From: Hypanus sabinus
Taxonomy: Eukaryota
Direction: 5' to 3'
Assembly (NCBI RefSeq): GCF_030144855.1
Contig: NC_082726.1
Span: 30,938,001-31,002,000 of the forward strand
DNA length: 64,000 bases
The notes under the pieces are model-generated. The model was not told the DNA's origin and did not search any database. It worked only from the letters and a program-made list of their open reading frames with translations. The position numbers and the translations under genes were made by a program. Positions 5,826 through 64,000 of this stretch are shown one piece after another; position 1 is the first letter of the stretch, and each line of letters starts with the position of its first letter.

Positions 5826-8490
5826 CAGGGGTTGGCAACCCGCGGCTCTTTCATCTCTGTGCTGCGGCTCCCTGTGGTTTTGGAAAATAAATGATGAGTA
5901 TTTAATTAAAATGCATTTTATGTTAGTTTGTTAGTTTTTGAAATGTAATTCTAAATTTGAAGATTATGGTGATCTTGTACAATCTAAATAAAACGTATTT
6001 TTTGTCGCTATTAATATACGTCACCACTGCCAATGCCTGACACCCACCAGTGCGCGATTTCTTTAATTTTTCGATCTAAGGTAGGCCAACTATGGAGAAT
6101 TCTAAAAAAAGAAAAGTGACTGAAGAAAACAGAACGTTTAATGATACGTGGGCAGATTCATTTGCTTTCACTGCTGATGAGACTGGTTTACCGGTATGCT
6201 TAATATATGCAATGAGAAACTAGCAAACAACAAAAAGTCAAAAGTCGCAAGACATTTCCAGAATAAACACGCAGCCTTTGCTCAAAAATATCCGGATGGA
6301 GATGAGAGAAAAAAAGCTGTTTCGGAATTGATGCGGAAGTTTGATCTGAGCAAAAATCATTTCAAGGAGTGGATGAAGTCTGGAAAATCAACTACATATG
6401 CTAGTTTTGTTGCCGCTCAGGAAATAGTCAGGCACGGGAAGTAGTTTACAGATGGCGAATATATAAAAGAATCTTTCATTAAGATTTCAGAACATCTATT
6501 CACGGACTTTAAAAACAAGAGTGAAATTGTGCAGAAAATCAGGGATATGCCCCTCTCTGCAAAGACTGTCAAAGACAGAACCATAAAAATGGCAGAAGAC
6601 ATCACAAGACAGCAAATTAAAGACATCAATTCAGCTGTGGCCTACTCGATTGCCTGTGACGAGTCTAAAGACAAAGGTGATATTGAACAAATAGCGCTGT
6701 TCTACCGGTATGTAAACTCTGCCGGGCCACAGGAATAACTGATTGAGTTGATACCTCTAAAGGGCCAAACACAGTGGGAGGACATCTGTGAGGCTGTCTT
6801 GAATTGTTTAAGAGCCAAAGGAATAAAGACCACCCACCTAGTGTCAGTAGCTACTGATGGGGCACCAAGTATGACAGGAGCACACAAGGGATTTGTGGCT
6901 TTACTGCAGAAGTCGCTGGACAGAAAGCTGCTGACTTTACACTGCATCTTGCACCAAGAGGCACTGTGCGCTCAAACATTTCCTCCGGAATGCACAGAAG
7001 TAATGGATGTTGTCATTCAGATTGTCAATAAAATAATGGCAAAAAGTTTAAATCACCGTCAATTCCGTTTGTTACTGGACGAGCTGGAAAGCGCATATTC
7101 TGATCTCCTGCTGCACAACAAAGACCGGTGGCTGTCAAGAGGGGAGGTGCTGAAACGCTTTGTCGTGTGTCTGGAAGAAGTGAAAACTTTCCTGTGCAGC
7201 AAAGGGCTCACCTTTCCTGAGCTGGAACAGCCAGAGTGGCTGGAAAAACTACACTTCATGGTAGACATGACAGCGCACCTGAACACGCTGAACACAGCTC
7301 TTCAGGGGAAAGGATGCACAGCCCTACACATGTTGGAGGATGTTTTGGCATTCGAGCGCAAGTTGACAGTGCTTGCCAGAGATTTACAGAAAGGTACATT
7401 GTCTCACTTCCCCAATTTGAGAGAGTTCAAACAAGCTCACGACATGATATTTGGAGTATTTACATTCTGCAATCACCACAATGTAAACATCGTTTGGGAA
7501 ATGCTTCTGTGAGTTCAGAGAGGAGAAAAACACATTATCCTTCCTGGTCACTCCCCTAAGCATCGATCCTTCCCTACTGAATACGACTGCATTGGCAGGT
7601 GTGAGTAAACCTGATCTTGAGATGGAACTGGCCGACATAGCCGACAAAAACATATGGGTGTCCAAGTTTAGACGCTTGACAGCAGACCTTGAAGATGTTG
7701 CCCGTCAGAAGGCCGTTCTTGCTCAGAATCACAAATGGAGCGATATTAAAAACCTCCTCAAACCGGACAAACTTGTGTTCGAAACTTGGAATGCTATCCC
7801 CGACATTTATGTAAACATTAAAAAGTATGCGCTTGGAGTCCTGTCGATCTTTGGATCCACATATGTATGTGAGCAGGTGTTCTCCAACATGAACTTTATT
7901 AAAAACAAACATCGCGCACGCCTCACAGATCCTGCGATCCTGTGTAAAGATGAAGGTGACATCATACAGCCCTGATGTGCAGACGCTGTGCGCTGAGGTC
8001 CAGGAGCAGAAATCCCATTAACCAAGTACGATAAATATTTTAATTGCCTATTATTTTACGTATATTCATATTTTTTCATTGTTCAGTGAAATAGTCCTTT
8101 TATTTTTCAGGTTGACAGCTGGCTGACGTTATTTTTGGTTTGCTGCTGGCGGACCATTAAGTTCGGTGTTTTTCATAAATACAAGAAGGACTCAAATAGA
8201 CGTTGAGTATTTTACTTAAAAGTAACCTTCAACCCAACGTCTTTTTTTCGGAGTTCAAAATGTTTTTGTTGCATGCAGAAATGTAATTTCATTTTCTCTG
8301 CAGGAGTTCATCGATTTCATAAATGCAACACATTATAGTTTGTTTATACATAGCATAAAGGCAAAAAAAACGTTGTATGCAGTGTTATTTCATTTTAAAT
8401 GTCAAACGGGTTTTGTGGCCCCCAGTGTTTTCTTTTCTGTGGGAAACGGGTCCAAATGGCTCTTTCAGTGGTAAAGGTTGCCGACCCCTG
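5826..8490 (+). mobile_element. hAT DNA transposon (Buster/Charlie-type), full length, inserted into a CR1 fragment
   Basis: TIRs caggggttggcaacc and ggttgccgacccctg; perfect 8-bp TSD tcctaaag at 5818-5825 and 8491-8498. Confidence 0.95.
6092..8021 (+). pseudogene. hAT transposase (GTF2IRD2/EPM2AIP1-like), disrupted
   Basis: MENSKKRKV..., CLI-C zinc finger, YSIACDESKD, VATDGAPSMTG, HCILHQEAL, RWLSRG, FGSTYVCEQVFS; several stops and frameshifts split it across ORFs 6196, 6529, 6748 and 7592. Confidence 0.92.
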
Positions 8491-8659
8491 TCCTAAAGCC
8501 TTAAAGTCCATCACCAAGATCTTGTCTACTTCATAGACCTTGGTCATGACCTTCAGCTCATCAGCCTGGCTCTCTAGAATATCCTGTGGCTGCTCAATGA
8601 TATTATTGACTCTAGTGCATACTATCTCAGAATCTGTTCTGCAGCTCTTAGACAAGCCT

Positions 8660-9510
8660 GCCTGCTCCCCTACCTGCGCCAGCTCTTCACTCTGTTCGGA
8701 TATCCCTGCTATATTCACAGTGACAGAGGGTCCTCGGTTATGAGTGACTAGCTGCACCAATACCTGCTGGCTAGGGGTATTGCTACTAGTAGGACCACGA
8801 GCTATAATCCCCAGGGGAATGGACAGGTGGAGAGGGAGAAGGCCACACTCTTAGCCCTTAGGTCAAAGGGACTGCCAGTCTCTTGCTGGCAGGAGGTCCT
8901 CCCCAAGGCACTCCACTCCATCCTCTCCCAGTTATGCACGTCCACCAATGCCACCCCTCATGAGCGACTTTTTTCTTTTCCCAGGAAGTCGATCACCGGG
9001 ACCACTCTACCGGCATGGCTGACAACCCCAGGGCCAGTGCTGCTCCAGAAACATGCGAGGAGCAATAAATATTCCCCGATGGTCACCTACTTCATGCAAA
9101 TGCCAGTATGTCTATGTGGTCTTACCTGATGGGCAGGAGGACATGGTCTGCAGGAGCACCAGACCCCTACCCTGAACACTCCATGGTAACTATGAACCCC
9201 GTACCCACCAATGTATATACCCACGAGACACTGCACACACCAAGCCCTACACAGACTCATCACGACACTCCCATACTGGGCGACACGCACACGCATGAGG
9301 GGTTACTGATGCCTAATGGGCTGGCACCTCAAGTCAGGCCAGAGCCAGCACAACCACCGTGACCACTGGTGCTACGTAGATCGCAGTGACAGACTCAACT
9401 ACCTGATAGATTTGACCTGTAAATATAATTGTCAGAAACTTCACCCCGTGGGGACTCTCTTTTAAAACAAAGGAGGGGTGAATGTGGTAAACTATGTATA
9501 CTATGTTTCC
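8660..9510 (+). mobile_element. Gypsy LTR retrotransposon fragment: integrase, PPT and start of 3' LTR
   Basis: IHSDRG and RTTSYNPQGNGQVERE integrase motifs; LCTSTNATPHERLF; purine tract aaaggaggggtgaa followed by TGT at 9483. Confidence 0.8.
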
Positions 9511-9699
9511 TTCTCCCTTAAATATGTTGATGTCTTTACTTTAATATTTTCAGTCTATTAATCTTTATGGCTACGTAGCACTCCAGAGAGACTAGGTTGC
9601 TAATACTGCCCAAATTCTTTTGAGGAACTCAGACAATTACAATGTGATGCATCAGAGGCTGTAAGGACCTTATGAACTATAACACACTATGTGCAAACC

Positions 9700-10570
9700 T
9701 ATAAAGGGTATAATTGTAAATGAGAGATTCTCGTCTGTAGCAAGAAAAGCAGCAGCAAATGTATGATTTCCCAGAGACAAGATCCCAAAAGACACTGATG
9801 GTATCTGCCACAACTGGGCCCTTCCCTGGAGGTCATTTGTGCTTCTCCAAATGGACTTTATGCAGTTACCTGAATGTATGCATTGTGATTATGCACTTGT
9901 TATCTCCATGGGTGGAAGTTCATCAAACTCAGAGAAATGACGTTATGCTAAGTTTATTACTATGAGAATTTATTCCTAGGTTTGAGATCCTTGAGAAAAT
10001 CTCAAGTGTTAAAGGCCCTCACTTTACAGGTAAAGTTATATAGGAGTTGGCAGTATAAATGTCATTTTACCTGCCCTTACATCTACAATCTAATGGGGCA
10101 GCTGAAAGGAAGAACGGTGCCTTGCCTTGAAATTTATAAGTCAGTTAAACGTTGCAATGAAACTGAGCTAAGCAGACATATCCACTGATCCTTATGACAA
10201 CGTGCTGAGCTCCAAACTGTGTAACAGACCTATCTCCACGTTAGATATAATTGGGATATCCCAGTGATCCTTCAGTTTCATTAAACAGAAGGACATCTAT
10301 ATTTTTTAGTGAAACCATGCTGTAGTATTGTACAGCACTAACACAATCTCTTAAATTTTCCATCAGCAGGTACTTCAAGGCCAGAAGATCATGCTGGCTT
10401 CAGAGTGTCAGATCTACTAACTGGGAGATTGGGTACTGGTGAGATCCTGTCAATGAAAGAACAGCCTTGAGCCCTGCTGGTCAGGTGCTTTTCAAGGTCT
10501 GCTGACTACATATACTGCTCTAAAGGTCCAAGGGAAGCTGATGTGGATCCACACATTGCACGTTAAGACA
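9700..10570 (+). pseudogene. pol: Endogenous retrovirus pol integrase domain (class I, epsilon/gamma-like), degraded
   Basis: Manual translation: LQMDFMQLP (9845), EFIPRFEILEKISSVKGPHFTGKVI, QSNGAAERKNG, GDWVLVR...LEPCWSGAFQGLLTTYTALKVQGKLMWIHTLHVK (10424-10567). Confidence 0.85.
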
Positions 10571-10619
10571 GCGTGCCACCAAACCAGAGAACTGGTGGCC
10601 AGTAGAACCTTGATGATAA

Positions 10620-10933
10620 GGACTAATTAAATGAATTAGTCATCTTTACCTGTGACTTTAATGAATCACTATACATTGTAAGTTTTGGGCAATCTGGCCA
10701 TCTGTTTCTTGTTTAAGTGCAGAACTCCCCCTTAACACTTTTAACATTTCATCCTAGTTATGAACCTGCACTGTGTACTAACCAATCAGGTTGTTGGGTG
10801 TGCTTTAGAGGGTCTACATTTTGAAAGGTATGAATCATAATGTTTGATTCCGTGTTTTATTTTAATAATGAAGGGAGCACAGGACAGCACTGCCCAGAGA
10901 AATGACTCTTGCCAGAGCAACTGTTCTGAAGGA
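10620..10933 (+). pseudogene. env: ERV env, N-terminal SU part, cut by the BEL insertion
   Basis: NQSGCWVC (10780-10803) CXXC motif directly downstream of integrase; N-glycosylation sequons NDS and NCS. Confidence 0.65.
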
Positions 10934-11627
10934 TGTTGTATCAGCAAAACCAAAACAATTGCTGCTGTTGGCGACACTACGGATTTGTCATATTTGCATG
11001 ATGTGCCCCAGCTCCAATGATTGCTCCAAAAGTCGATTCTCTTACTCAATCCTTTATTAGCAATTAGCAAACATACAGTTTTGAAGCAATGAAACTTAAA
11101 TGTACCCCAGTATAAGCTAGGTATAATTGAGCATTACTGAGCAGTCAGCAAAAGGTACGGCATCCGCTAGTCCCAATCTATAAACTGCAATGAAATAAGA
11201 AAGAAAATGAAACTTATTTCCTTCACTTTTACCACACTCATAAGACTAGTTACCATCATAAATTTTATACAGATACAACACAATACAATGCAGATAGAGA
11301 ACAGATGCATGGCTCCTATATTCCAGCTCCCTAATTATTATACCAGAATAATTCCAGCTACAGGAGACATGAAATCTCAACATTTACATAAATGTCCTCT
11401 TTTGGTAAGCAGTTTATCCTGGATTGTGATCTGCTCCTAACAAACCAGGTTGTTCCTCTTGAATGTTCATGATAATCTGTTTTGAATCACTGTTGCCAAA
11501 GCTGATTTAAGTTCAAAACTGAAGTCCTATTAACTGTCAGCTCTGGCAGAGTGTAGCTCCTTCCACCACACAGTCTCCTTTCAATGGTCCATTAACAGTC
11601 CAAGAGAGATTGTTCTGATGAAGATGT

Positions 11628-11765
11628 TCTGTCCTGATGAAGGACCTCAGTCTGAAACATTGCCTCTTACTCTTTTCCATAGATGCTGCCTGGCCTGCTG
11701 AGTTCCTCCAGCATTTGGTGTGTGTTGCTTTGGATTTCCAGCATCTGCAGATTTTCTTGTGTTTG
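11628..11765 (+). repeat. Penelope-derived repeat with degenerate hammerhead motif
   Basis: gtcCTGATGAaggacctcagtctGAAAcatt followed by the family body atagatgctgcctggcctgctgagttcc. Confidence 0.8.
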
Positions 11766-13096
11766 TTGTTCTGATTGCATAGGTCCATTATTGACATTGT
11801 GAATCACTTGCAATGGCTCCAATGCCTTAGGCACATTCACCCCATTATCAGCTCAATTCCCAATAAAAGAATGTGCTTTAGGTGAGATCATCCCTGAAGA
11901 TCTTTCTGACGAGGAATGTTCCCCTTGTAGAAAGGCATACGTTTCTGTATCGAGATGTTAGGAAGCTCACAACTGTTTTTATTACTTAAACCAACCACTT
12001 CTAGTTCTGAAATGACGTGGCTACCCACAACCTTCTCATAACCCATTGTACGTAAGAGAAGGTGCGTTTCTTTTCCTGTCAGGTTGAGCTTGTTCACGAA
12101 GCTCACTGCGCAGAACGCAAGACAGTGGTTACTTATGCTTTCCCAGATCAAGGAAGTACACTTCCTTGATCTAGAAAAGCGTAAGTAACCACTGTCTTGT
12201 TAGCCTTCTTAGACTTCACCTGAACTGGAATTACAGGAAGCTTACAATCATGATCAGCAGACCCCACAAGGCCATTAGGTACCAAGGCAGTACATGCTGC
12301 TGTGTTTGCTTCACCAATGGCTTGTTTCGAGTCTGCATTCTTTTCATCAGTTCCAGGCTTAGTTGTAGCTTCACTTTCCACAACAGTAGCAAAGCTGCTT
12401 CCTTTAGCTTGAGAACAGATCTGAGATCCAGTTTTGTTCACACGTTTACCTACTGCCGGCAATGTAATATTCTATTTTTTTTAACAAATTCTGGGTGTGT
12501 AGCAATCTTTACTTGACTTTCAATAACTTCATCAATGTAAATGAAAGTAACTTTTCTTGCAGTTTATAAACTGCTGATCTCCATTTTTCCTAACTCATGC
12601 ATGTTCTGTACATCCTCCGTGGCATCACAACAGCCACTAATAAAAAGACTGTAATCTTGAAGAGTTTTCAGGTCATCTGATTTAATATGTGGTCAAGAAA
12701 GAGCCTTTTTGCATGTATGCCACAGCAAATTTGTGCTCATCACCAAAATGTTCCTGTAGTAAAGACTTTGGATATCCTTGCTCCAGGCCGGCCTGCTGGA
12801 AACTTTTGACAAGCTCTCTGGGGTAACCTTCAGTGAACTGTTTGAGAAAATAGAGATGGTCAGCATAATTATCAGTCTTGCCTTCAATGCTATTCTGGAA
12901 AGCTCCCATAAATGAATGGATCACCACAGAAGATTTCAATCCCTCTTTGAGGCAGAGATGCAATGCATTGTTGTTGCATGACTGTGCTTGTTCTTTCCTT
13001 TTGCATCTTTATGGCCTCCAGCACAGCACCTAGGCCTTTATCATCGGAAACACAAGTCCATCAATGTCCTCAGAAGCACCTTCTACCACTGGATAT

Positions 13097-13440
13097 TGTG
13101 ACATGGACGTGGGAGGAAAACGAACCCAAGTGCAGGACTCCGACGCGGAGGCAGGATCAGGAGGCAGAATCTCTGTAGCGAGTGTAGAATCGGGACCAAG
13201 CTGAGTCAGGACCTGAGAGACTTGGTTTACAGAGAGATATGGGGCTCCTCTCTCTGAGAGTCGACCAACAATCTGGCAAGGGCTGACCGGAGCTGTCGGA
13301 GTCTTATCCTCTGGTGGTGAATGGAAACCAGGTGCTGGTGATTGAGAGGAATTGGGAAAGATTGGGAATCAAGTGAGGGGATTAAGGACCAATTAGGGAG
13401 GAAAGGGAAAAGGTGGGAAATGCCAGCCAGGACCATGACA
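13097..13440 (-). mobile_element. Probable solo LTR (Gypsy-like) inserted in BEL gag
   Basis: TGT...ACA termini with a short terminal inverted repeat (tgtgacatgg / ccatgaca); flanks gatat and gttat form a near-TSD. Confidence 0.6.
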
Positions 13441-16400
13441 GTTATGGCATAAGATTAGAGTGTCTCCTTGGTGCAGGCTGAGTATGTACACCAAGAACTA
13501 TGCCTTGGGGCTCAAATGTATCCACATTAATATTGAGTACACTGGGTTTTCCCTGCTGCATGTCAACATAGAGCCTCTCCCAAAAGAGCTGTTTAGCACC
13601 CACGGCACTTGAAGCCCTTAGCATTTAGCTCTACCCATCTTAGCTTCAATTTCTTCCTGCAACTTAAGCTGCTCCATCTTTCTCTGAAGTTGCTCTTCTA
13701 TCTGTTCCTGGTGTCTTCAAAATTGTTCTGCCGGTTCTTCCTGGTTTCTTTGAAACTGTTCTTTGTCTCTTCGAAGCTATTCCATTTTTTCTTCCAGTGT
13801 GTGTTTATCCCTCGATATTTGCTGTTTTGTGTACAACAAAGGTAAATCAGTTTCTATTCTAATGTGTGCTAATTAGGTATCAGATGTACAGGTCACTTTG
13901 CTAGCAATAGAATGTGCTGTGTGCATGTTAGACATCTTCAGCTTTATACATAGTCACAGCCTATTCTGTGGCCTTGTAAATATTTTCATTTCTTCTATCA
14001 ATCTGACCTTCAATATTGCATGATTGTTTCATTTCTCTCTTAGTCTTGACTTCAAGGTCTCTGCTTCCAGCTTGACTCATGTTGTTTCTGAATGTGCAAA
14101 CCAGAGAAAGCAATGGCAAATTACATTTTTTATCACTAATTTTTATTGCAACACCAACAAATTACATTCAATACAACCAGTTGCCGATTACATTTTGACT
14201 GTTTAACCCAGCCACCCCCAACCCTCATCACTATCCCCCTCCGCCCCTCATCCCCACATCTCCTCTCTCCCTCTCTCCCCCATCCCTCTTCCCCACAACC
14301 AATCAACTGAATAGTAGTGCATACACAGACAGAACATTCCGATTTTAACAGAAAGTCTTTTAAGTTAGATGTCAGATTTGTCCACATTAAGATTGTGTTT
14401 GGTCATGTGTCATTTATTCTTGCTGATGGTAATTCCAGGTAGGAAATGTCCAAAAAGCTCCGAAGCCAGTGAGTACTTGAAATATCATGGGGAGGTTTCC
14501 AACGCTGGACTACAATCTTCTTGGCTGCAGTCAGGCCTGCCAGCCAGACTTTGCGTGATTTTTCCGTAAGGGAAATGTGGTAGTCATCGTTTAGAAGATG
14601 TACAGTGAGGTCCATTGGTAATTGTACCCCTGTTAGTTTTGTAAGAGTACTGATAACCTTCCCCCACAAACCAAAAACCCCTGGACATTCCCATACAACA
14701 TGTATAAAAGAGCCAACGGTTCCGTGGGGGCAAAATGAGCAATATGGGTCAGGAACCAGTCCCATTTGATGTCTAATTCTCGGTGTTAAATATGCTCTAT
14801 GACAAAATTTCAAGTGTATATACCAATGATTTGGGTTCAGCATTATCCCAAATCGCATCCCTGTCTAAGTCTTGTCCCAATTCAGATATGTCCCTATCCC
14901 AGGCTTTCATTCCTGCTGTGGGCATATATTTCTGGGAGTTTAATTTATCATAGATATATGATACTATCTATCCTGGAGTACTCTGTATTGAACTTAAAAT
15001 GGGATGGTCATTTAAATCTGACCCCCCAGGGAATCCCGTAGGCTTTACAAGCTGATCTTACTCTAAAATAGAAGAAAAGAGAATTTTATCAATATGATAT
15101 CTAGGTACCAGTTCTTGAAAGCTAAGGATCGTACTTACTCCATTAATATCTTGAAGAGTAGTAATACCTTTATCCTCCCAAGTTCTGTTAGTGAATGGTT
15201 CCCCCCAGGTAGAAAATGATTATTGCTCCATACTGGAAAAGATTTGCACCATACACTTTTAAATTTTAGGAATTTTTCTGCTCTAAACACTTGTAGCATA
15301 TGGGTTAAAATTGGACCATAATACAAATCACATTTTTTGGTAGACATGCCTATAAGGAGAAAGTTCTTCAATCTTATTGGTGCTTTAGCTCTTGTTCTAT
15401 ATTTTTCCATGACGAAACTTTATCCTCCTCCAGTCAATAGCTAAGACTTTTTAATACAAATACCCAGTGATACAATTTAAAATTTGGACATGCCAATCCC
15501 CCATCTGACTTTTTGAATTGCAGAGCTGACCACCTTATATTGGGTCATTTACCGTTCCAAACATAGCATCGTAGTAAGGAGTCCAGTTTTTGCCAATATC
15601 CTGCTGGAGGCACAAGTGGGATCAGTGAGCTGATAAAATTAATGCAGAGTAAGATGTTCATTTTAATGACTGATATACGGGCTGGGACTGATGCTGGCAG
15701 GTTTCTCCATCTTTTAATATCTTATTCTGTTTTTTTCAAAATTAAAGAGTAATTTGCTTTAGCCACAGATGATAGGGAAGTATTAACTTTAATACCCAAG
15801 TAGAGGACCTCTTTTGTAACCTTAATCTGGGGAGGCAGAGTCACCTTACTTTCATCTGTATTAATCAGCATCAGTACTGATTTTGACAAACTATATCCTG
15901 GAAGAAATCCAAATTGCTCCAGTGTTTTTAAAACATAGGGGAGAGTTTGTTGAACACTTGCCATATAAACTAGTGTGTCGTCCACATAAAGTGATATCGA
16001 ATGTGATGTTGTACCTACTGTAATAGGGGAGATCTGAGGAGAGTTTCTAATTAAATGTGCAAGCCATTCAATAGATATAGAAAATACTAAAGGAGACAGA
16101 GGGTCCCCTTGTTGTGTGCCCCGTCTTACATCAAATAACTCTGAGAAACCTCCTCCCACACATACCCAGGCTGAGGGATTTGCGTAAAGTGTTTGAATCA
16201 TATTGATAAATTTATTGCTGAGCTTAAATTCTTTTAGAACTCTCCAAAGATGTGGCCATTCAAGGCGATCGAATGCTTTTTCAGCATCTAGAAATAGCAG
16301 GTCACAGACAGGTGAGATTTTATGTGTTGCACTCAGTATGTGTAAGAGCTGGCGAATATTATCAGATGCGAGACGTCCCCTGATAAAGCCCGTTTAATCT

Positions 16401-17616
16401 GGGCTGGTTATTATCCCAACTACTGGCTAAGACTTTGGAAAATACCTTGAGGTCGGCATTTATCAAGGAGATTGGACGGTAATTGGCACACACCAAGGGG
16501 CTCTTACCGGGCTTAGGTATAACTGTGATCAGGGCTATGGTTAGATCTCAATGGAAAGCGCCATTTCCAATAGCATAATTTAATGTTTCTAACCACACTG
16601 GTCCAAGAATATCCCAAAGAGCTAGGTAAGGTTCCACAGGTATGCCGTCTATACCTGGCGTACGGCCTCTATTTGTAGTTTTGACTGCTTTGAGTAGCCC
16701 ATCCAGTGTAATGGGAGAGTCTAGAGTTTTGGTGTCCTCTAATGACAATGTAGGGAGGTTTAATCCACTAAAAAACTTCCTAAAAATAAAATGACTATAA
16801 AAATAAAGTCACTAAAATGACTTGCTTCTGAAGTCATTCTCAGAAGGAACTGAGCCTCTTGTATACAGTTCTTTAAAGTAATTCTTGAATGTTTCATTTA
16901 TTTCCTCTGTTGAAGATACTACTCCATGTTTAGCACATCTAACTGCTGGTATAGACCTTTTAGCTTTCTGTTGTTTGAGCATTTGTGCCAAAAGATGGCT
17001 CGGTTTGCTGCCTTCTGCATAATACTTATGGTTGGTTATATGGATCATATATTCTGCCCTGTTTCTTAAAAAAATCATTTAATTATGCTTGTTTTGTTCT
17101 GAGCTCGTTTTCTTTCGTTATGGTGTATCTCCTTTTGAGATCATTCTCCAAAACCTTACGTTGTTCTTCTAGGGTGGAAATCTTTTGAAGCCGGCTTTTA
17201 TGTAGGTGGGCACTGAACCATATGGCGTTATTTTGTAAGAAACCCTTGATGGAGGCCCAAACCACTGTCACATCTGAGACACTATTGTTATTTAAATTTA
17301 TAAATTCCGTCAGTTTTGTTCTCAGTTGTGTTAGAAATTTGTTGTTTTTTAGAAGGGTGGAGTAAAACCTCCACCTAGTAGCCTTACTTTTAATTTTGCC
17401 ATAATTAAAAGTAGATATGACTGGGCAAAAATTCTATTGGGTGTACCAAAGGCAGCAAACTGGATGATATAAGAATGTAATCTATCTGAGAGAAAGTTTT
17501 ATGACTTGTGGGGAAGGTATAGTCTTGAGCAGATGGATTATGCATCCTCCACATATCAGTTAAATTTAAATCCGTTAGAAAAAAGGTTAAGTGCTTTGGA
17601 AGCTTCTTGAGAGCTT

Positions 17617-18303
17617 CTTCACGAGGAAATCTCCAGCTGCTGGAAATTCAAGCAACACACACAAAATGCTGGTGGAATGCAACAGGCCAGGCAGCATCTA
17701 TAGGAAGAAGTACAGTCAACGTTTCGGGCCGAGACCCTTCGTCAGGACTAACTGAAAGAAAAGATAGTGAGAGACTTGAAAGTGGGAGGGGGAGGGGAGA
17801 TCTGAAATGATAGGAGAAGACTGGAGGGGGAGGGATAAAGCTAAGAGCTGGGACGTTGATTGGCAAAAGGGATACGCAGCTGGAGAAGGTAAACGATCAT
17901 GGGACAGGAGGCCTAAGGAGAAAGAAAGGCAGAGGGGAGCACCAGAGGGAGATGGAGAACAGGCAAGGAGTGATTGTGAGAGGGGCAGAGAGAGAAAAAA
18001 AGAGGGGTAATTAATAAATAGATAGATTGATAGATAGAGGATGGGGTAAGAATGAGAGGAGGGCCATTAACGGAAGTTAGAGAAATCAATGTTCATGCCA
18101 TCAGGTTGGAGGCTACCCAGACGGAATATAAGGTGTTGTTCCACCAACCTGAGTGTGGCTTCATCTTGACAGTAGAGGAGGCCATGGATAGACATATCAG
18201 AATGAGAATGGGATGTGGAATTAAAATGTGTGGCCACTGGGAGATCCCAGTTCCTCTGGCGGACAGAGCGTAGGTGTTCAGCGAAACGGTCTCCCAGTCT
18301 GTG
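17617..18303 (-). mobile_element. 5'-truncated Penelope-like element: GIY-YIG C-terminus, 3' UTR and pseudo-LTR with hammerhead motif
   Basis: Minus-strand translation RLGDRFAEHLRSVRQRNWDLPVATHFNSTSHSHSDMSIHGLLYCQDEATLRLVEQHLIFRLGSLQPDGMNIDFSNFR; hammerhead core at 17713-17749. Confidence 0.9.
17713..17749 (-). ncRNA. Minimal type I hammerhead ribozyme motif
   Basis: aguc-CUGACGA-a-GGGUCUCGGCCC-GAAA-C-GUU-gacug; stem I aguc/gacu. Confidence 0.75.
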
Positions 18304-19586
18304 TCTTCCTCAACTATATCAAGTTCTCAAATCTGCATCTTGAGAGCTTAATATAGTTGAGGAAGATCTATCAAGGCTATTCTTTACCAAAGCATTCATT
18401 TCCAAACCAACATATAGTTGGTAGTCACTTAACTTCAGTAATTGTGAGGTAATTGAGGGAAAAAATTCAACCTCGAATAGAGTTGGGGCATATAGGCTAA
18501 TGAATGCAACTTTTTCACCCTGAATGGATGTACAGCAAAAAGCTAGACGTCCTTTGTTGTTGGCACCAGTCCTTTCAATTGTTACATTAATACTAAGTCT
18601 CGTTAATATAACTCCTTTTGTACGAGTACCATCAGCTGATGCCACACCAGGTTTATAAAAGTGGTTTTGAACCCTGGGAATGTCATTAGGTTTAAGATGT
18701 GTTTCCTGTAACAGTGCAATACTTATTTTCTTTCTGTGTAAGAAATCTGAAACTTTTGAACGCTTGTAGGTTGAGTTTAATCCTCTAACATCAAATGATA
18801 CAATAGTAAGATTTTCTAATTTATCTGGGTTGCTCATCTTCCCCTGGATCTGTTGTTGTAAGTTGGTGTTGGAGCCCTGAGTTACCCCCTTCCCACCCCC
18901 CTCCCACCACCCCTCCCATTCAACCCTTTACTTTGTAACATCTGTGGTTGTCACTTAGCAATGTCAGACACTGAACAGTAACCGCCCCCCTCACATTAGA
19001 AAAGCAAAGCGGTTCTCATAGACAATCATATCAAAGGAACAAGAAACAAAACCTGGTCAAACCTGCTAACCTATATAAGTAAAACCATTCCTGTATCAAA
19101 TATAACACATAATCAAGACCCCAACAGCTCTCTTGCAGGAGACTGTTGCTTTAATGGACGGTCGCTTAGCAATGACGCCAGTGACGCCTTACCTGGCAGC
19201 CATGGACGTAAACAAGTCTACTGGAGACATAACCCGAAATGAACACGTACAACTAAAGTTATTCAGAACAAACTGCTGTTTTCAGCTTCATTCTTGAAGT
19301 ATGACATTTGGGTGTGTTGAATATCACCTTAGAAAGTGAAAGATAAAAAGTATATTCTAGGTGGACCTGTATCACATTACCATGTTATCCTTGCACTAAC
19401 AAGTTAACTGAGCCATTGCCTCAAAACTCTGACCTGCAATACTCAGAAAAAGACTGGCCCCTTAATTAACTAAATACAGAAGTGCATGGAATGACTTTCC
19501 AATAAAAGAATAACCAGGAAACTTCACACCTAGGACGTTAACTTGCCCATGCCTGTTAGATTGCACATACAGGCTGGTCTGAGCTC

Positions 19587-20420
19587 TTAATGCAGTTCCA
19601 TCTCCTTCTGAGGGACGTGTGGACTTTGCCCAGGGTCTTCTTTCATATCTCCCAGCACCGATAACTTCAGGGATTCTTTCGCTTCCTCTGCCGAGTTAAA
19701 CAACATCTTCATGCCCTTGGTATTCACTCTCAAAATCGCCAGGTATATGAGGAACGAGTCAATCCCCTTCTGTCGAAGCTTAGTGCGGATCTCCTTGTAT
19801 CCCTGCCATTCCTGCATCATGCCGGGGCTGTAGTCGGTGAAGAACTGCAGCTGGGTGCCATCAGGGAGAATAGGTTTGGCTTTCCTCGCGCCCTCCAGGA
19901 TAGCCTGCTGGTCGGTGTACCGTAGAAGCCTAAAGATCATGGTCTGCGGTCTTGAGGTGTTGTTGGAAAAGATCTTATGTGCTCTATCGATTTCCAGTGG
20001 AGTGCTGTGGGAGTTCTTGAGCGCTGGAATCCAATTAGGCAGTATCTCCTGGAGGTAACCTCTCGGATTGTTGCCCTCAGCGCCTGTCGGTAGGTTAACC
20101 AGCCGCACATTGTTTCTCCTGAATCTATCCTCCAAGTCGTTTAGTTTCTTCCATATCTTAGTCACCTCCGCGAGACAGGAGTTAGTAACTTTCTCATTCT
20201 TGCGTAAGCAAACCTGAATGTTATCTATTTTGTTAAAGACTGCGCTAAGTTTTTTAGCATGAATGTCCGCTTGCTCCTTTAACGACCGGAGAATGGTGCC
20301 ATTCTCTGCCATATGCTTCTGTATGGGTCGAGAGCCTTTTCCAGCAACTCCTTTAGCATGTGGGCTACCGTTTCTTGTAGCGATTCCAATCTCCGTTGCC
20401 ATTGTTTGCTTAATTAGCAT
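19587..20420 (-). CDS. L1 ORF1p (coiled coil, RRM, CTD); open over 277 aa, upstream N-terminus broken
   Basis: LNDLEDRFRRNNVRLVNLP, EIDRAH, IFRLLRY, FFTDYS motifs. Confidence 0.85.
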   Translation of the reverse strand: MLIKQTMATEIGIATRNGSPHAKGVAGKGSRPIQKHMAENGTILRSLKEQADIHAKKLSAVFNKIDNIQVCLRKNEKVTNSCLAEVTKIWKKLNDLEDRFRRNNVRLVNLPTGAEGNNPRGYLQEILPNWIPALKNSHSTPLEIDRAHKIFSNNTSRPQTMIFRLLRYTDQQAILEGARKAKPILPDGTQLQFFTDYSPGMMQEWQGYKEIRTKLRQKGIDSFLIYLAILRVNTKGMKMLFNSAEEAKESLKLSVLGDMKEDPGQSPHVPQKEMELH

Positions 20421-21310
20421 AGCTATTTCCTCAGATGAATCACTAGCTTGGTGTCATCTGCTGGTATCTTGTTTCTTGGTTGAATTTGGATGTCTTTATG
20501 AGGTCATGTCTTTAGTTAGATCTTTCTCCAACTCAGCCTTGTATTAAGACCGTCCATGAGCCCTAAAGAATGTGAAAAAGGAGAGTTATATGTCAGTGCT
20601 CAGTGCTGTGCTGCCATCTTACCTCGTACCTCACTAGAAGTCCCCGTAAATTAAATTTAACTGTAGACACCGTAAGTATTTCAATTCAGAACCAAGTGCC
20701 GAACTACTCAGGCAAACACCACTACACAGCTTTCAGTCCCTAATTGGACAGGCAGCGCTGAGCATTCAAAACTGTTTCAAACCCAGACACACTGCATGAA
20801 CCAACAGATTAGATGACTGTTACTTGCCACAAGTTGCTCTAGGCTGCAGATCTTCTGACTTCATGGACACATCTGAAGGCTGATGTTCATTTGGTAAAAC
20901 TGTCGAAAAATATTTGCCTACAGAATGTAGCTACAAAACCAAATCCAAAAGTGGCAACCCTGTGGATTGGTTATATTTGCATGATGTACCTCCAACTCCA
21001 AGGATTGCTCCAAAAGTCGAATCTTTTGTTCAATCCTCTATTAGCAATTAGCAAACATACAATCTTGAAGCAATGAAACTTAAGCATACCCAAGTGTAAG
21101 CTAAGTGTAATTGAACATTATTGAGCAGTCTGTAAAAGATATGACAGCCGCCAGTCCCAAACTACAAACTACAATGAAATAAGCAAAGATATAATTTATT
21201 CCCTTCGCTTTTACCACATCCTCACTCATGTGAGTAGTTACCATCATAAACATAATAAACACATAACACTGAGTACAGTGCATCGAGAACAGATGCATCA
21301 ACTTCCTACA

Positions 21311-21660
21311 AAGGACTACACAATCCCCCTGCTCTGAAGCTGCTTCATGAGGATAAGGGTGAGGTTTGTTACTGTAATCACCAAGGGATGGGACGAGACT
21401 GAGGTAACAGTACGTGTAATGTCGATACTAGTGTCCCTCCAATTCCCATTTACTGGTTATGTGGTCATCAGATCAAACTCTGGCTGCCCTTTTAAAATGG
21501 GATTATTGGTTGAAACAAATCCAGGGAGGATTTGTTGTGTCTATGTAGTATTATATATGTACCAACTATTACACTGTATTGAATTTTTCTGTTCAGAAGA
21601 GCATGATGACACAGAACAGTCCCGGTGCACAAATGCAATAAAGTATGATTGAGGAAAGGA
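21311..21660 (+). pseudogene. env: ERV env remainder (SU C-terminal part joined to a probable membrane anchor) and PPT
   Basis: GEVCYCNHQG..*GNSTCNV...IYWLCGHQIKLWLP followed by a hydrophobic stretch; purine tract gaggaaaggaa then TG at 21662 (possible 3' LTR start). Confidence 0.6.
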
Positions 21661-22392
21661 ATGCGAGTTCCAGGGTCTAGTTAATCAGCATTGATAGCTC
21701 CCTCAGGTGACAGCACTTCCTGCAGTTGTGGTTTCCAAAACACAGAAACCAATGTGGAATTACCAAAACTCTCGATCTGCATTCCATGGGTCTGAGTCTT
21801 CTTACAATCCCACCATTCATTGCAAACCACCTTTGGCACTCACATGCTGGGTTTTGTTTTTATTGATGACAGGAATATTTTTATCAGAGCTTCCTTATGT
21901 TGGTTGTTTAATGCTGACGAGTTGATTGATTGAATGTAATGTACTAATTGTACAGTTTAACACATACAAGTTGTACTTTTGCTAGGTTTCACTTCAATCT
22001 TAGGAATGCAGCTTGCTGTTCTTCCAGGCTCCTAACTGTTACAGCATTGGTCCTCTGGCTTGATGACAGCAGTAGACTGAGGATATTCCTGTCCTAATGT
22101 TACCGAGGGTCCTGGAATACAACTTACAACAGCTGATAGACTCAGTTGCCCAAATTTTCGATGCCATATTTAACACAATGCTAATGCTACAACACAACAT
22201 AATGGAGGATGACCTTATAGTGAAGATGAGATAGTATCCACAAAGACCATATATCAGTCACTCCTACCAATATTCATTTTGGGCAGATATATCTGCAATA
22301 GGAAGATCAATAAGGATATGGGCAAGCAGTGTGATCCATTCAGCCCCTGCCATTGAGCCTGTCTGGCAGCAACACCCTCAGGAGTGGCCACT

Positions 22393-23650: not shown

Positions 23651-23913
23651 CCGTTCGCTCTCCTCTGTATTTGCCTTGATGTTTGAATCTTCCTTGATGG
23701 GCAAAAAATGCAGTTGATCATGACCCCGCATCTTATCTCTGAACTTCTCTTTGTGGTAGCTCCTGCTCGCATTTCTCTCCTGGAGTTTTCTCAGGTACAG
23801 CAGAGCGCTAGCTCACCGGATCGAATTACAGGCTGTAAGTCACAGTCTTCAATGGTTTCAAAAACAAAATTAGGATAAAAAGAATAAATAGAAGATGTAG
23901 AAAAACTGGTAGA

Positions 23914-25463
23914 GTGCCCAGAGGATGTGCAGACCAGCTAGCAGATGTTTTCACTGACGTCTTCAACATCTCCCTGAGCAGCACCACCATTCCAACGTGC
24001 TTCAAGGCCGCCACCATTGTCCCCGTGCTGGAGAAGTCTTCAGTGTCCTGCCTAAATGACTACCGTCCCGTTGCACTTACATCCATCATCATGAAGTGTT
24101 TCGAGAGGCTTGTCATGAGGCATATCAAGACCCTGCTGCCCCCCTCACTGGACCCCCTGCAGTTTGCGTACCATCCCAACCGCTCAACAGATGACACCAT
24201 TGCCACCACCCTCCACCTGGCCCTAACCCACCTGGACAAACAAGACACATTTGTTCGAATGCTGTTAATAGACTTCAGTTCAGCATTCAATGCAATCATC
24301 CCTCAGAAACTGATTGGAAAGCTGAGCCTGTTCGGCCTGAACACCTCCCTCTGCAACTGGTTCCTAGACTTCCTGACTTGGAGACCTCAGTCAGTCCGGA
24401 TCGGGAGCAGCACCTCCAACATCATCACACTGAGCATGGGGGCCCCCCAGGGCTGTGTGCTCAGTCCACTGCTGTTCACTCTGCTGACCCACAACTGTGC
24501 TGCAACACACAGCTCGAACCAAATCATCCAATTTGCCGATGACACGACCGTGGTGGGTCTCATCAGCAAGAACGATGAGTCAGCTTACATGGAGGAAGTG
24601 TTGCAGCCAATGGACTGGTGCAGAGCCAACAACCTGTCTCTTAATGTGAACAAAACAAAAGAGATGGCTGTTGACTTCAGGAGGGCATGGAGCGACCACT
24701 CCCCGCTGAACATCGACAGCTCCTCGGTAGAGATCGTTAAGAGCACCAACTTTCTTGGTGTTCACCTGGTGAAGAATCTCACCTGGTCCCTGAACACCAG
24801 CTCCATAGCCAGGAAAGCCCAGCTGCGTCTCTACTTGCTGCGAAGGCTGAGGAAAGTCCATCTCCCACCCCCCCATCCTGATCACATTCTACAGGGGTTG
24901 TATTGAGAGCATCCTGTGCAGCTGCATCACTGCCTGGTTCGGAAATTGCACCATCTCGGATCGCAAGACCCTGCAGCGGATAGTGAGGTCAGCTGAGAAG
25001 ATCATCGGGGTCTCTCTTTCTGCCATTACGGACATTTACACTACTCGCTGCATCCGCAAGGCAAACAGTACTATGAAGGACCCCACACACCCCTCATACA
25101 AACTCTTCTCTCTTCTGCAATCTGGGAAAAGGCACCAAAGCATTCGGGCTCTCATGACCAGACTATGTAACAGTTTCTTCCCCCAAGCTATCAGACTCCT
25201 TAATACCCAGAGACTGGACTGACACCAACTTACTGCCCTCTATTGTACCTATTGTCTTGTGTATTATTTTGTGCACTTTATGCAATCCTGGGTAGGTCTG
25301 TAGTCTAGTGTAGTTTTTTTTTCCCCGTGTTGTTTTCACGTAGTTCAGTGTAGTCTTTGTACTGTTTCAGGTAGCTCCATGGTCCTGAAAAAGTCTCATT
25401 TTTACTGTGTACTGTACCAGCAGTTATGGTCGAAATGACAATAAAAAGTGACTTGACTTGACT
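23914..25463 (+). mobile_element. Rex1/Babar LINE, 5'-truncated, RT largely open (330 aa)
   Basis: [39 protein letters not shown] motifs; AATAAA and (gactt)n tail. Confidence 0.92.
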
Positions 25464-44579: not shown

Positions 44580-47500
44580 TGTAGAGTTCTTGCTCGGGTG
44601 TAAGAGAACGCCGAACTAAACACCGAGGTAAACCGTAGTCAATGAAAACAGGATCGCAGTAAGATTAACCATTTACTGTTCACTCTTCCTCATTAACATA
44701 TGGTGAAAACTGTTGACAAAACAATACAAGATTTGTACAGCATTTGTTTCCTTCTTGATATTGCATTTACATCATAAATACTTGCAAAAGTAAAACTACA
44801 ACAACTACATTGCATTAAAGTGCAGCATACAGTCAGAATCTACCTATGCCACTGACTGCTTTAAATACACTTCAACACAAACTATCCGCAACTCTTTAAC
44901 TAATGAAAACATAAACCTTATCAACCGTCATTACTTTTAACAGAATCAGCGTTAACATTTTAATTCAACATATCGATTATCTCATGAACTTACAGCGTTG
45001 CTTCACTATGTTTCTAATGTGTAGAGGACATCTTTTCTTGTGCTGATCTCGCACATGTGAACCCCCTCCTTCCTGCTTCTCCAAGCCGGTATTTTCCCAC
45101 AGGATGCGGCGAAACCGGATGTGACGTCATCACATGCCACGATATATCACAGACAACGAATTTACTTTAAACAATCCTAACTTTAACTAGAAAATGCTAA
45201 CAAACAAAATACTAAATATTATAAACTAAAGACATGCCATAAAGGCAACACACTCCCCACTTGACCTTCACAATGAACATAATACAAACTTTAGTCTCTA
45301 AATCAATTGTTAGGTAGAAGTAGAATGACTTCTGTAACTGGTAAATTTTCACATCACCTTGATTGGTAGTTTTCAACTCAACCTTCCTGACATGTCCATC
45401 CCTGCTAGGGAATGTAGCAGTGATTCTGGTCATTGGCCAGCAGTTGCGGGCGATTTGTTTGTCCCTGAGCAGGACTAAATCTCCAACTTGAAGATTCCTG
45501 CAGGGTTCTGTCCACTTTTGTCTGTGTTGCAACAAAGGTAGATATTCCTGTCTCCAAAGAGACCAGAACCGATTTGCCAGAGCCTGGACCTGTCTCCATT
45601 GCTTTGTGCACAAATCCTTATAAGAGAAGTCCCCTGGTGGAGGGGGGAGCTCCTGCCTTCTGCGTAAGGTGCATTGATGGTGAAAGTAGGAAGGGGTTTT
45701 CCGGGTCAGAAGACACAGGTAGGAGTGGTCGTGCATTGATAATGACTGTGACCTCTGCCATTACTGTGCACAGTAACTCGTGTGTCAATCAGGTGCGTTG
45801 CTGCATCTCAGGTTTCCTTTTCAGGGTTTTTTGCAAGGGCGTGAACCGCTCGACTGCCTGCTCTTTGTTGTTTGGCAAGCACTGGCGTGGTTCTCTGAAA
45901 GGTAGTGGGGCGACCCAATTATTTGCTTCATCTCTGAAGACCTTGGTGTCCATTATTTTTAATAAAATGGTGTTTTGATCTGATGGAGCAAGTTTGTTAT
46001 CATGCTTAGTTTGAGCGAAGACTGACTGACCCAGCATCTCTTCAGTTACTTTACGTTTGTTAAAGGCTTGTCGTGCTTCCTTAATACACGTGACACTTGT
46101 GCGGAGTTGAAAAATTGAATGGCGGCCACTCTCTAGCACATTGGTCTTGAGTGTGTTAACTGTTGATTTGTGTACATTGCCAGGACACAGCTCTCCTATC
46201 ACCACCCAGCCCAGATCCAGGCGTTGCACAAAGGGGGCGTCGTGTGGTCCATTGACCTGCTGCCTAACCTTGTGCACCCGGAGACCATCTCTTCCTAATA
46301 GCAGGAGTATTTCTGCTTTTGGATCCAGTTCTAGGATGTGTTTGGCGATGTGGTGGAGATGTGGCTGGTGTAGCACCGCACTTGGCGTCGGGATCTCAGT
46401 GCGGTTATTCAAAATTTCATTGCACTCTAAGAGTGGAGGGAGACAGATGACGACTTTACTATCCAGGGACTCGAGCTGGAAGCCTTCTGCCTTCCTTCCA
46501 TAAGTTTCCACGCTGCCTGAGCAAGTTCTAAGGTAGTATGGGAACTGATTACTCTCAATGTGGAACAAGTTAGAGAACTCTGGACTGACTAGTGAGCGAT
46601 TGCTCTGATCGTCCAGAATTACATAGGCTTTGATGGCCTTGTCTTTGGCTCCCTTAGGGTACACCTTAGTGAGGCAGATCTTTGAACAAGAACAGCTTGA
46701 CTGAGTTTGACCGCAAACTTCTGTACAGCTCGAGCTGACAATGGTTGTCCTGGAATGAGCCTCTCCCTCCCCGCCGTCCTGTTGTGGGGGTGAAGGAGCG
46801 TTGTCGGTTTGCGGTAATGGGCCGGGATGCATGGCCCCATTGTGATTAGTGCTATTACATTCCGGACACTTCATGGCAATCATACACTCTCTTGCAAAGT
46901 GAGAGGTCGAGGAACAGCATTTAAAACATATTCTTTTCTCCTTGAGAAGGGCCATCCTCTCTTCAAGGGATTTTTCCCTAAATGTTCTGCATTTTCTGAG
47001 GGGGTGGGGTTTGTTATGCAATGGACAATTCTTTCGAGGGTCGTTGTTAGTTGTAAAGGCTTCAGTCTTAAGCACTGAGACAGGTTTATTAATGTTGAAA
47101 TTATTCGAAGAGGATTTATCTGGCTTGGTGTAAATTGCACTGCTTCTTGGACCCATGATGCTAGGGTCGTTTTGCTTCTTCGCCTCCTTGCACACAAACC
47201 TAGTGAAATACTCAAAGGGAGGAAATCAACCATTGTGGTCTTCTTTGTACTCTGAGGCAACAGACACCCACCTGTCCTGCAGCACAAATGAAAGTTTGTC
47301 CACGATTTGTCTAATCCCGGATGGAGTATCTAGGTATACTAGACCAGTTGAGTAGCCATCTTCTTTGGCGCCTTGAATCTCCATGAGTAAATCTCCGAGC
47401 TCCCTTAACTTAGTGTGGTTCTTGGCTGACACCTTAGGAAAATTTTCCAGACGTCAGTATAGCGCCGCTTCAATAATTTCGGGGGCCGCATAGCCCTCCC

Positions 47501-59900: not shown

Positions 59901-60430
59901 TACTGGAGATAAATCCCATCAGAACTTCACCAGTTCAGATGCAACACAACCTTTTTGTAAGGCCAAGTTGCTCTCCAGCACCAGCCTTTTACCCATGCGC
60001 TCATCTGTTCAAACTTCCAATTTCTAAACTCACTAGCACATGGCACAGAGAGTATTCCAAAGATTACATAGAGGCCCTGCTTTTCAACTTTATACACAAA
60101 CTCCCTAAATTCCCTTTACTGGACCACATTTCTGTTCTTTCTTATGTAAATTAGTACCAATATGAACCATGATCTCTGGCTGCTTGTTCTTCTCTTTCAG
60201 AATGTTCGATATTTGCTCAAAGACATCCATGACAATGGCAACGACCCACCATCTGATAGTCTCGCTTGCAGCCACAGAAACTCCAGTCTGCCCTTTGACC
60301 ACTATCAATTTGGCTGAATCTGCCACTTTCTTCTGCGGTCGTTAGATAGGGGAATAGCCACTGGGAACTCCTGCACTGTCTACCTTTTCTGGGAATCACC
60401 CATCTATAGCTGGCTGAACCTGAAGGGTGA
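56990..60430 (-). mobile_element. Degraded CR1 LINE(s) with small nested repeats, including a Penelope copy at ~59600-59725
   Basis: LLVRDNISAV...ESIWVE (EN), QPEIMVHIGTN (ORF1 esterase), RT remnants at 57.6-58.3 kb. Confidence 0.75.
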
Positions 60431-63400: not shown

Positions 63401-64000
63401 CCCACAGCCTCCTTTCCCCTGAGGTTGGGGAGTCCCAGGCTGACATTATCCGGTTGGCGAGTGTGGTGTGTGGCTGAGGAGGGGTCCATGCAAGTGTCCA
63501 GTGTGCATTTAAATCCTTGGCTCTGCTCTGAGACTGGTCGTGAGGCTGTTAAGAATTCTCTTGACCTTGGTCTCAAAACTCTTGATCTTACATTTACCTT
63601 ACGTGACTTCAGTTTAAACATACTACAATGCTTGTAAAGTACATTAAGGATACTCTGAGGTTGTCAAGGCAAACACTGAGTGCACTAACAGCTATTTTGT
63701 TTCTAAGCGAAGGTTAAAATTATCTCATTAAAGTCAGAATCAGGGTGAGCTAAATTGACTCACTGTGTCACCAAAAGAGTTTGTGACTGCTTGGCACAGA
63801 GATCCACCTCAGCCTGAAGATCTAAGGCTCTGTATGTTGCTGATCTGCTATAGAGCAGTGCTGACTGGGTGTTATGTCACTTGGCTGAGATGTGAAACCT
63901 TGACCCTGCCTGATCTCACTGGTGAATGAACTATTTGAAGAGCAGAGGTGTTCTCACTATCCTGGCTAGTCTGAATAACTGAGGATGAGTTGATTATTAA

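What the first reader, a model, noticed from the sequence alone, without database searches (positions are those of the whole stretch)
9700..21970. Cryptic endogenous retrovirus (integrase plus env) not shown by the ORF track
Seen: frameshifted plus-strand peptides LQMDFMQLP, IPRF...GPHFTG, QSNGAAERKN and GDWVLV...LLTTYTALKV...WIH, then NQSGCWVC, and, after removing the BEL insertion, GNSTCNV...YWLCG...LP, a hydrophobic stretch and a purine tract plus TG at 21662. Established: these match class I (epsilon/gamma-like) retroviral integrase and gamma-type env with an SU CXXC motif. Inference: an old ERV in a probable cartilaginous fish, a group with comparatively few characterised retroviruses. 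The TM ectodomain (furin site, fusion peptide, ISD) appears deleted.
Basis: partly seen in the sequence, partly recalled or inferred. Interest (0 to 1): 0.7.

Follow-up and report, generated by a model that had tools for sequence, protein, structure and literature searches.

The report
Fossil defective retrovirus in ray genome
This is a broken 1.7-kb piece of an ancient retrovirus in the genome of a cartilaginous fish (probably a ray), split by a later jumping-gene insertion, and it belongs to a branch whose other copies lack the viral copying enzyme and likely spread by borrowing it from fuller relatives.

Summary
The remnant is real. Integrase (9.76-10.57 kb; MLV-type C-terminal domain E 6e-14) and the surface half of a gamma-type env are split by a 10.4-kb LTR element (TSD AAGGA) that holds a LINE. 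The genome has at least 124 related loci. An integrase tree puts the family among class-I-like ERVs, outside Gypsy and outside the gammaretrovirus clade, so it is probably epsilon-like.

Two first-reader details fail. The "purine tract + TG" at 21662 lies inside the U5 tail of the 3' LTR. The missing TM is a local deletion; other copies keep fusion peptide, ISD and CX6CC.

Added here: this copy belongs to a star-like branch whose copies share a protease-RT deletion (21 of 29 measurable) and a ~110-nt integrase deletion (16 of 16). A sister branch with related LTRs keeps protease or RT remnants. The best reading is an old non-autonomous ERV subfamily copied in trans, now dead and fixed across related species. 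ERVs in cartilaginous fish and defective ERV subfamilies are both known; my searches found no report of this one. The scan's notes held nothing similar.

The parts
9561..9759 (+). Start of ERV homology: end of RNase H and shortened integrase N-terminal region (carries the ~110-nt deletion of the main branch)
   Evidence: Homology to family copies starts at 9561; 194 nt to the CxxC, against 178-202 in main-branch rows and 273-320 in 11 of 12 sister rows
9760..10262 (+). Integrase CxxC and catalytic core, frameshifted, with stops; second catalytic Asp lost
   Evidence: Custom core HMM iE 9e-17; tblastn E 1e-25 summed with the C-terminal domain; 11 stops in the best single frame
10415..10573 (+). 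MLV-type integrase C-terminal domain
   Evidence: PF18697 E 5.7e-14; PDB 2m9u E 7.5e-10
10665..10933 (+). env 5' part: signal-peptide region (boundary approximate) and SU CXXC (CWVC at 10792)
   Evidence: Colinear with family copies; same motif in Env homologues P0121, P0124, P0134
10929..10933 (.). Target-site duplication AAGGA, left
   Evidence: Sequence
10934..21310 (-). Inserted short (~3.4 kb) LTR element, BEL-like (weak evidence); LTRs 10934-~11320 and ~20926-21310; younger than the ERV
   Evidence: LTR pair K2P 0.187; relatives L107 and L108 are 3.4 kb from LTR to LTR; L107 matches BEL-type protease regions at iE 3e-3 and 4e-6; no Pfam hit
14128..20678 (-). LINE (ORF1, endonuclease, RT) nested in the inserted LTR element
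   Evidence: Exo_endo_phos E 1e-3 and RVT_1 E 9e-21; absent from relatives of the LTR element
13097..13442 (.). 345-nt high-copy repeat nested in the inserted LTR element
   Evidence: Most of the 40 scored loci match only this stretch, at 82-92%
21311..21315 (.). Target-site duplication AAGGA, right
   Evidence: Sequence
21316..21567 (+). env SU 3' part, ending before the furin site
   Evidence: Env HMM iE 3e-5; tblastn to Pristis Env E 4e-4; family homology ends at 21538-21608
21568..21694 (+). Tail of the ERV 3' LTR (poly(A) signal 21637-21642, U5; may extend to about 21716), fused to SU by a deletion of TM, polypurine tract and U3
   Evidence: BLAST to LTR ends of L071, L070, L056, L016; alignment; junction bridged by a contig of organism E
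8673..9501 (+). Neighbour, not part of this ERV: piece of a younger 2.45-kb LTR element with an integrase remnant, ending in its polypurine tract and the first ~19 nt of its LTR
   Evidence: 39 other loci at 78-86%; 193-bp LTRs in L048; tblastn E 4e-12

Best explanation
Window 9561-21700 is a dead internal fragment (integrase, env surface part, 3' LTR tail) of an old endogenous retrovirus, likely epsilon-like, from a branch whose copies share deletions of protease-RT and part of integrase and which was likely multiplied by enzymes from a fuller sister lineage. Steps: (1) a class-I-like retrovirus with a gamma-type env and a tRNA-Gln primer site entered the germ line (anatomy shown; entry inferred). 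(2) A template lost protease, RT, tether and half of RNase H, and ~110 nt of the integrase zinc-binding region, but kept LTRs and primer site (shown in other copies; this copy shows only the integrase deletion). (3) That RNA was packaged, reverse-transcribed and integrated in trans at many sites (inferred); a derivative lacking the env anchor also spread. (4) This copy lost both ends, took an LTR-element insertion and then a LINE, and decayed (shown). It makes no working protein.
For: Knuckle to RNase H end is 285-611 nt in 21 of 29 measurable loci; the protease active site alone lies 2205-2976 nt from that point in 48 intact Pols. The other 8 loci (700-4825 nt) show no same-strand protease, RT or tether hit in that interval. 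A query across the junction matches end to end at about 15 loci on many contigs. The same HMMs find protease, RT, tether or RNase H N-half pieces in 10 of 13 sister loci of similar age, so the absence is not a sensitivity artefact (Pfam RVP E 3e-7 in L112, RT_RNaseH_2 E 8e-7 in L109). A DNA tree splits 18 main from 12 sister rows at SH-aLRT 100; the main branch is star-like, tips 0.13-0.20. The integrase deletion is in 16 of 16 measured main rows, including the window. Primer site matches host tRNA-Gln with 1-5 mismatches right behind the 5' LTR in 13 of 41 sequences. Eleven LTR pairs give K2P 0.23-0.31. Anchorless env in 18 of 26 informative loci, long form in 8. Orthologous contigs exist in organisms B, E, F, K; K's is ~90% identical and spans the ERV/inserted-LTR junction.
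Against: The protease-RT junction lies left of 9561 and is missing from this copy, so its membership rests on the tree and the integrase deletion. No helper was shown to act; the sister copies are themselves broken, and L120's RT frames gave no Pfam hit. Queries came from main-branch copies, so the defective-to-complete ratio cannot be estimated. The deletions are not strictly nested: L111 has main-type gag-side DNA and the short env but a full integrase N-terminus, which needs recombination or recurrence. The epsilon-like placement has only 89/80 support, used an alignment made with a class-I HMM, and had no WDSV, SnRV, foamy or class II rows. Five of the ten top HMMER hits that I looked up came from invertebrates; Pfam showed LTR-retrotransposon layouts without the MLV-type domain in them.
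Confidence: 0.8

Rival explanations
1. It is a fragment of an ordinary autonomous ERV; the deletions in other copies arose after insertion, or spread by segmental duplication or gene conversion.
For: This copy lacks the region that would show the protease-RT junction. Sister copies carry varied private deletions. One duplicated pair exists (L062/L064; top pairwise identity 98.6%).
Against: The same junction and the same integrase deletion recur on many contigs with unrelated flanks. Pairwise identity is a median 72%, about as far apart as the two LTRs of one copy, which fits independent insertions and not duplication or conversion.
Confidence: 0.12
2. The integrase belongs to a Gypsy-type retrotransposon with a captured env-like gene, not to a retrovirus.
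For: Gypsy-type proteins were among the top HMMER hits of the core profile. Best PDB core hits were foamy virus integrase, with Ty3 at E 9e-6.
Against: MLV-type C-terminal domain above cut-off. The tree separates the family from 10 Gypsy rows (99/90 and 100/98). Summed tblastn ranks coelacanth, elephant-shark, newt and turtle ERV Pols first. The TM profile hits TLV_coat proteins (E 2e-22) and syncytin and MLV p15 chains.
Confidence: 0.03
3. The TM-less SU is a host-kept secreted receptor blocker, like Refrex-1 or suppressyn (names recalled).
For: SU without TM here; anchorless env is common in the family; the locus is kept in several species.
Against: env is cut by a 10-kb insertion, holds stops and frame changes and has no 5' LTR. 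The ortholog in organism K differs by ~9% with many indels. The anchor deletion is shared by dispersed copies, which points to the template and not to selection on one locus.
Confidence: 0.02

Closest known systems
Epsilon-related class I ERVs with gamma-type Env in anamniotes (bioRxiv 10.1101/2021.11.23.469661; parts 1-3 of 6 and passages read)
   Same: Epsilon-like pol with a gamma-type env (CXXC, ISD, CX6CC); that survey reports such env in 6 cartilaginous fish, 3 with over 500 copies.
   Different: I could not assign a GTE clade (supplements closed, no reference rows). The parts I read describe no protease-RT-less subfamily; the supplements may list this family.
Elephant-shark CmiERV lineages II/III (PMC4422223; part 1 of 2 read)
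   Same: Epsilon-like ERVs in a chondrichthyan; an elephant-shark Pol fragment (XP_007890028) is the second-best match to this family.
   Different: CmiERV LTR pairs differ by 0.024-0.033; this family's by 0.23-0.31. CmiERVs are complete or near-complete. Whether that protein is a CmiERV II/III was not tested.
Defective ERV subfamilies copied in trans: IAP I-delta-1 and ETn/MusD (PMC1331978, passages), cattle ERVK D-type and recKoRV (PMC10924933, passages)
   Same: An internally deleted form keeps LTRs and cis signals and spreads using proteins of competent relatives; I-delta-1 has a 1.9-kb gag-pol deletion, a similar size.
   Different: Those are young and mammalian; the mouse and cattle cases are class II. 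This one is class-I-like, in a cartilaginous fish, long extinct, and trans action is inferred from shared lesions only.
Predicted ERV Env proteins of Pristis, Heterodontus, Hemitrygon, Narcine, Scyliorhinus and Pristiophorus
   Same: Closest Env homologues: 28-45% identity over the TM region; short SU with the same motif order.
   Different: They are largely open frames; every copy of this family examined is disrupted.

Membership tests
Retroviridae / ERV (vs Metaviridae) | Integrase groups with retroviruses, not Gypsy | tested here: met
   11 family rows inside a 69-row ERV clade (99/90), apart from 10 Gypsy rows
Retroviridae / ERV (vs Metaviridae) | env homologue downstream of pol | tested here: met
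   TM profile hits 19 TLV_coat proteins, best E 2e-22; SU piece of the window iE 3e-5
Retroviridae / ERV (vs Metaviridae) | LTRs and tRNA primer site | tested here: met
   In other copies: LTR pairs and a tRNA-Gln site. In this copy only the 3' LTR tail survives.
Retroviridae / ERV (vs Metaviridae) | RT phylogeny | not tested
   RT is absent from the main branch; no tree was made from the sister remnants
Class I ERV | MLV-type integrase C-terminal domain and kinship to gamma/epsilon Pols | tested here: met
   PF18697 above cut-off; tree. Class II and III rows were not available.
Gammaretrovirus-like (clade Jin) | Integrase within the gammaretrovirus clade | tested here: not met
   The 11-row clade holding 'Gammaretrovirus sp.' (99/97) excludes the family
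Epsilon-like (clade Mu) | Groups with WDSV/WEHV-related fish and amphibian ERVs | tested here: inconclusive
   Falls with fish, elephant-shark, newt and turtle Pols at 89/80; no named epsilonretrovirus row
Gamma-type Env | SU CXXC | tested here: met
   CWVC at 10792
Gamma-type Env | ISD and CX6CC in TM | tested here: met
   Degenerate in other copies; deleted from the window copy
Non-autonomous ERV subfamily | Same inactivating deletion in independently inserted copies | tested here: met
Non-autonomous ERV subfamily | Competent relative with shared LTRs | tested here: inconclusive
   Sister loci with RT, protease or tether remnants and LTRs 64-78% like the family's; none intact
Non-autonomous ERV subfamily | Mobilisation in trans shown | not testable with these tools
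   Extinct family; inferred only
BEL/Pao (inserted element) | BEL gag/protease domains (DUF1759, DUF1758, Peptidase_A17, DUF5641) | tested here: inconclusive
   No Pfam hit; relative L107 matches BEL-type protease regions weakly; 5-bp TSD

The most novel reading that the evidence does not exclude
A ray genome preserves an ancient defective-ERV takeover: an RT-less, integrase-damaged class I subfamily that radiated in one burst on a helper lineage's enzymes, fossilised beside that helper. It would be the first such case described from cartilaginous fish and far older than the mammalian examples, and RT-anchored surveys would miss it.
Probability: 0.5. Interest if true: 0.45.

Novelty: new member of a known kind. 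Interest (0 to 1): 0.3.

Why it matters
The locus has no likely function. The family is a datable, multi-species fossil record of an epsilon-like retrovirus in cartilaginous fish. It offers a deep-time test of the idea, modelled for cattle ERVK (PMC10924933, passages), that defective copies displace competent ones and end an ERV family. It also shows that screens keyed on RT (the method passage of PMC10435555) would not count such subfamilies. The nesting gives a relative clock: ERV LTRs K2P 0.23-0.31, inserted LTR element 0.19, split from organism K about 0.10.

Tried and rejected
The word-based homologue search with one integrase fragment found nothing. The viral-contig scan for named retroviruses gave one weak, irrelevant hit. 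Pfam found no rve or TLV_coat in the window's own frames, no gag domain in five fuller copies except one zinc knuckle, and no BEL domain in the inserted element or three relatives. The BEL frame at 45789-47225 did not match the inserted element. The ESM Atlas gave no answer. The rve search of the genome returned only a young ERV family, not Gypsy outgroups. A query with L035's gag-protease region was swamped by a SINE. No 5' part of this ERV was found left of 9561 in the window; the hits in the 10 kb left of the window fell in insertions carried by the query copies. No RNA holder was listed; this says nothing on expression. Absolute dating was rejected: the rate assumed in PMC4422223 (2.2e-10 per site per year) gives 520-700 My for these LTR pairs, too old to be credible, and PMC10587355 (passages) gives only a per-generation rate. 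TSDs of family copies could not be read reliably. A frameshift just after the SU CXXC is shared by 15 of 23 rows but also by sister L032, so I did not use it as a branch marker. Anchor hydrophobicity overlaps between long (1.74-3.03) and short (0.56-1.83) env forms; the HMM and DNA gap carry that claim. Literature searches that found no description of this family.
Full report
Observation. All quoted peptides are present. The integrase C-terminal stretch passes Pfam's MLVIN_C cut-off (E 5.7e-14) and matches MLV integrase in the PDB (E 7.5e-10). The core is weaker on its own (foamy virus integrase E 0.04) but clear against 120 class-I-like Pols and a custom HMM (iE 9e-17). A 10,377-nt element with TG...CA ends and an AAGGA duplication interrupts env at 10934-21310. 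In 18 of 24 other loci the two sides are contiguous. Relatives of the insert are about 3.4 kb from LTR to LTR; the rest is a LINE (14128-20678) and small repeats. Its BEL label is only weakly supported.

Host. The genome is 4.04 Gb. Another ERV in it has its best RT match in Mobula (75%), and all 13 named Env homologues are chondrichthyan. A cartilaginous fish, probably a ray, is my inference.

Family. Four DNA searches, each scoring only 40 candidates, gave 124 distinct loci on 27 contigs, a lower bound. I fetched 40 loci of 10 kb around hits to the window and to L024 and 13 around hits to L035. Fuller copies run from LTR to LTR in only about 5.5-6.2 kb. Their order is: LTR, tRNA-Gln primer site, a gag region ending in a zinc knuckle, the C-half of RNase H, integrase, env, LTR. 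The window copy covers only 9561-21567 of this, plus the LTR tail.

Right end. A contig of organism E bridges this junction; organism K's contigs leave it unresolved. Other copies keep furin site, fusion peptide, ISD and a degenerate CX6CC. A profile of those pieces finds 19 TLV_coat proteins (best E 2e-22) and syncytin and MLV p15 chains. Of 26 informative loci, 18 share a further ~250-nt loss of the second heptad and membrane anchor, and 8 keep them.

Class. In an 80-row integrase-core tree the 11 family rows form one clade (100/98) inside the ERV clade (99/90). They lie apart from 10 Gypsy rows and from the clade holding 'Gammaretrovirus sp.' (99/97), and fall loosely with fish, elephant-shark, newt and turtle Pols (89/80). 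The coelacanth Pol P0144, the best match by summed tblastn, was too short in the core to enter the tree. No WDSV, SnRV, foamy or class II row was available. PMC6001957 (passages) restricts the gamma clade to amniotes and places epsilon-like ERVs in nearly all jawed vertebrates, which fits 'epsilon-like'. Against: Gypsy-type proteins appear among the top HMMER hits; 65 of 148 hits carry the MLV-type C-terminal domain.

Non-autonomy. Knuckle to RNase H end is 285-611 nt in 21 of 29 measurable loci, against 2205-2976 nt from the protease active site to the same point in 48 intact Pols. The other 8 hold longer stretches without same-strand protease, RT or tether hits. A ~110-nt deletion in the integrase N-terminal region marks 16 of 16 measured main rows, the window among them, while 11 of 12 sister rows are longer (also 18 of 18 against 2 sister rows). 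Ten of 13 sister loci keep protease, RT, tether or RNase H N-half pieces, and most also match the family LTR at 64-78%. This is both a sensitivity control and a candidate helper lineage. The DNA tree separates the two branches at 100, and the main branch is star-like. Copies with two LTRs, a primer site and unrelated flanks that share lesions fatal to replication are best explained by copying in trans; that step is inferred. Whether it happened inside cells or in particles cannot be told. L111 mixes features of both branches, suggesting recombination. Search bias prevents any ratio of defective to fuller copies.

Age. Eleven LTR pairs give K2P 0.23-0.31; the inserted element's pair gives 0.187. 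Thirteen coded organisms share 31-mers with this copy; I laid 4 of the 20 holder runs. One contig of organism K spans 9908-11199 with 121 differences, across the ERV/inserted-LTR junction, and contigs of B, E and K continue into the right flank. Both insertions therefore predate that split. I give no absolute date.

What is known. Elephant-shark epsilon-like ERVs (PMC4422223, part 1 of 2) and gamma-type env ERVs in six cartilaginous fish (bioRxiv 10.1101/2021.11.23.469661, parts 1-3 of 6; supplements closed and possibly relevant) are in print. So are defective ERV subfamilies copied in trans in mouse, cattle and koala (PMC1331978, PMC10924933, passages). Seven searches found no account of this family; Repbase and Dfam could not be checked. 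The scan's own notes held one unrelated finding in this genome and none by words.

Verdict. A real but dead ERV fragment and a new member of a known kind. The family-level history is of moderate interest to paleovirologists. Interest 0.3.

Noticed in passing
window 8673-9501: Piece of a younger 2.45-kb LTR element (193-bp LTRs) that carries only an integrase remnant; at least 39 other loci. Its integrase is a long branch outside both ERV and Gypsy clades in my tree. Contigs of organisms B and K begin matching at 9504-9506 with other DNA upstream, so it is not adjacent there.
   Followed up: partly
window 10934-21310; L106-L108: The inserted element is itself a short (~3.4 kb) LTR family with gag/protease-like remnants and no RT seen, another likely non-autonomous family.
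   Followed up: partly
window ~44580-49000: Second, younger LTR element (LTR pair K2P 0.039) with a 478-codon open frame and DUF5641 (E 4e-25) but no RT hit: BEL-type and likely non-autonomous.
   Followed up: partly
window ~6000-8512: hAT-type DNA transposon copy, 94% identical to one in L016.
   Followed up: no
L021:841-3357: Remnant of a different, younger ERV (RT to integrase N-terminus, then an env tail), 75% like a Mobula protein, just upstream of a family copy.
   Followed up: partly
L072-L101: A young, high-copy ERV family with near-identical integrases and open frames up to about 1300 codons dominates the rve search (150 scored matches).
   Followed up: no
L111: Copy with main-type gag-side DNA and short env but sister-type integrase, suggesting recombination between templates.
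   Followed up: partly
window ~60300-63700: Pyrimidine-rich low-complexity tract followed by a G+C-rich stretch that looks like a host gene start; no Pfam hit.
   Followed up: no
window 23839-25222: LINE RT frame with an ALKBH8_N-like tail.
   Followed up: no
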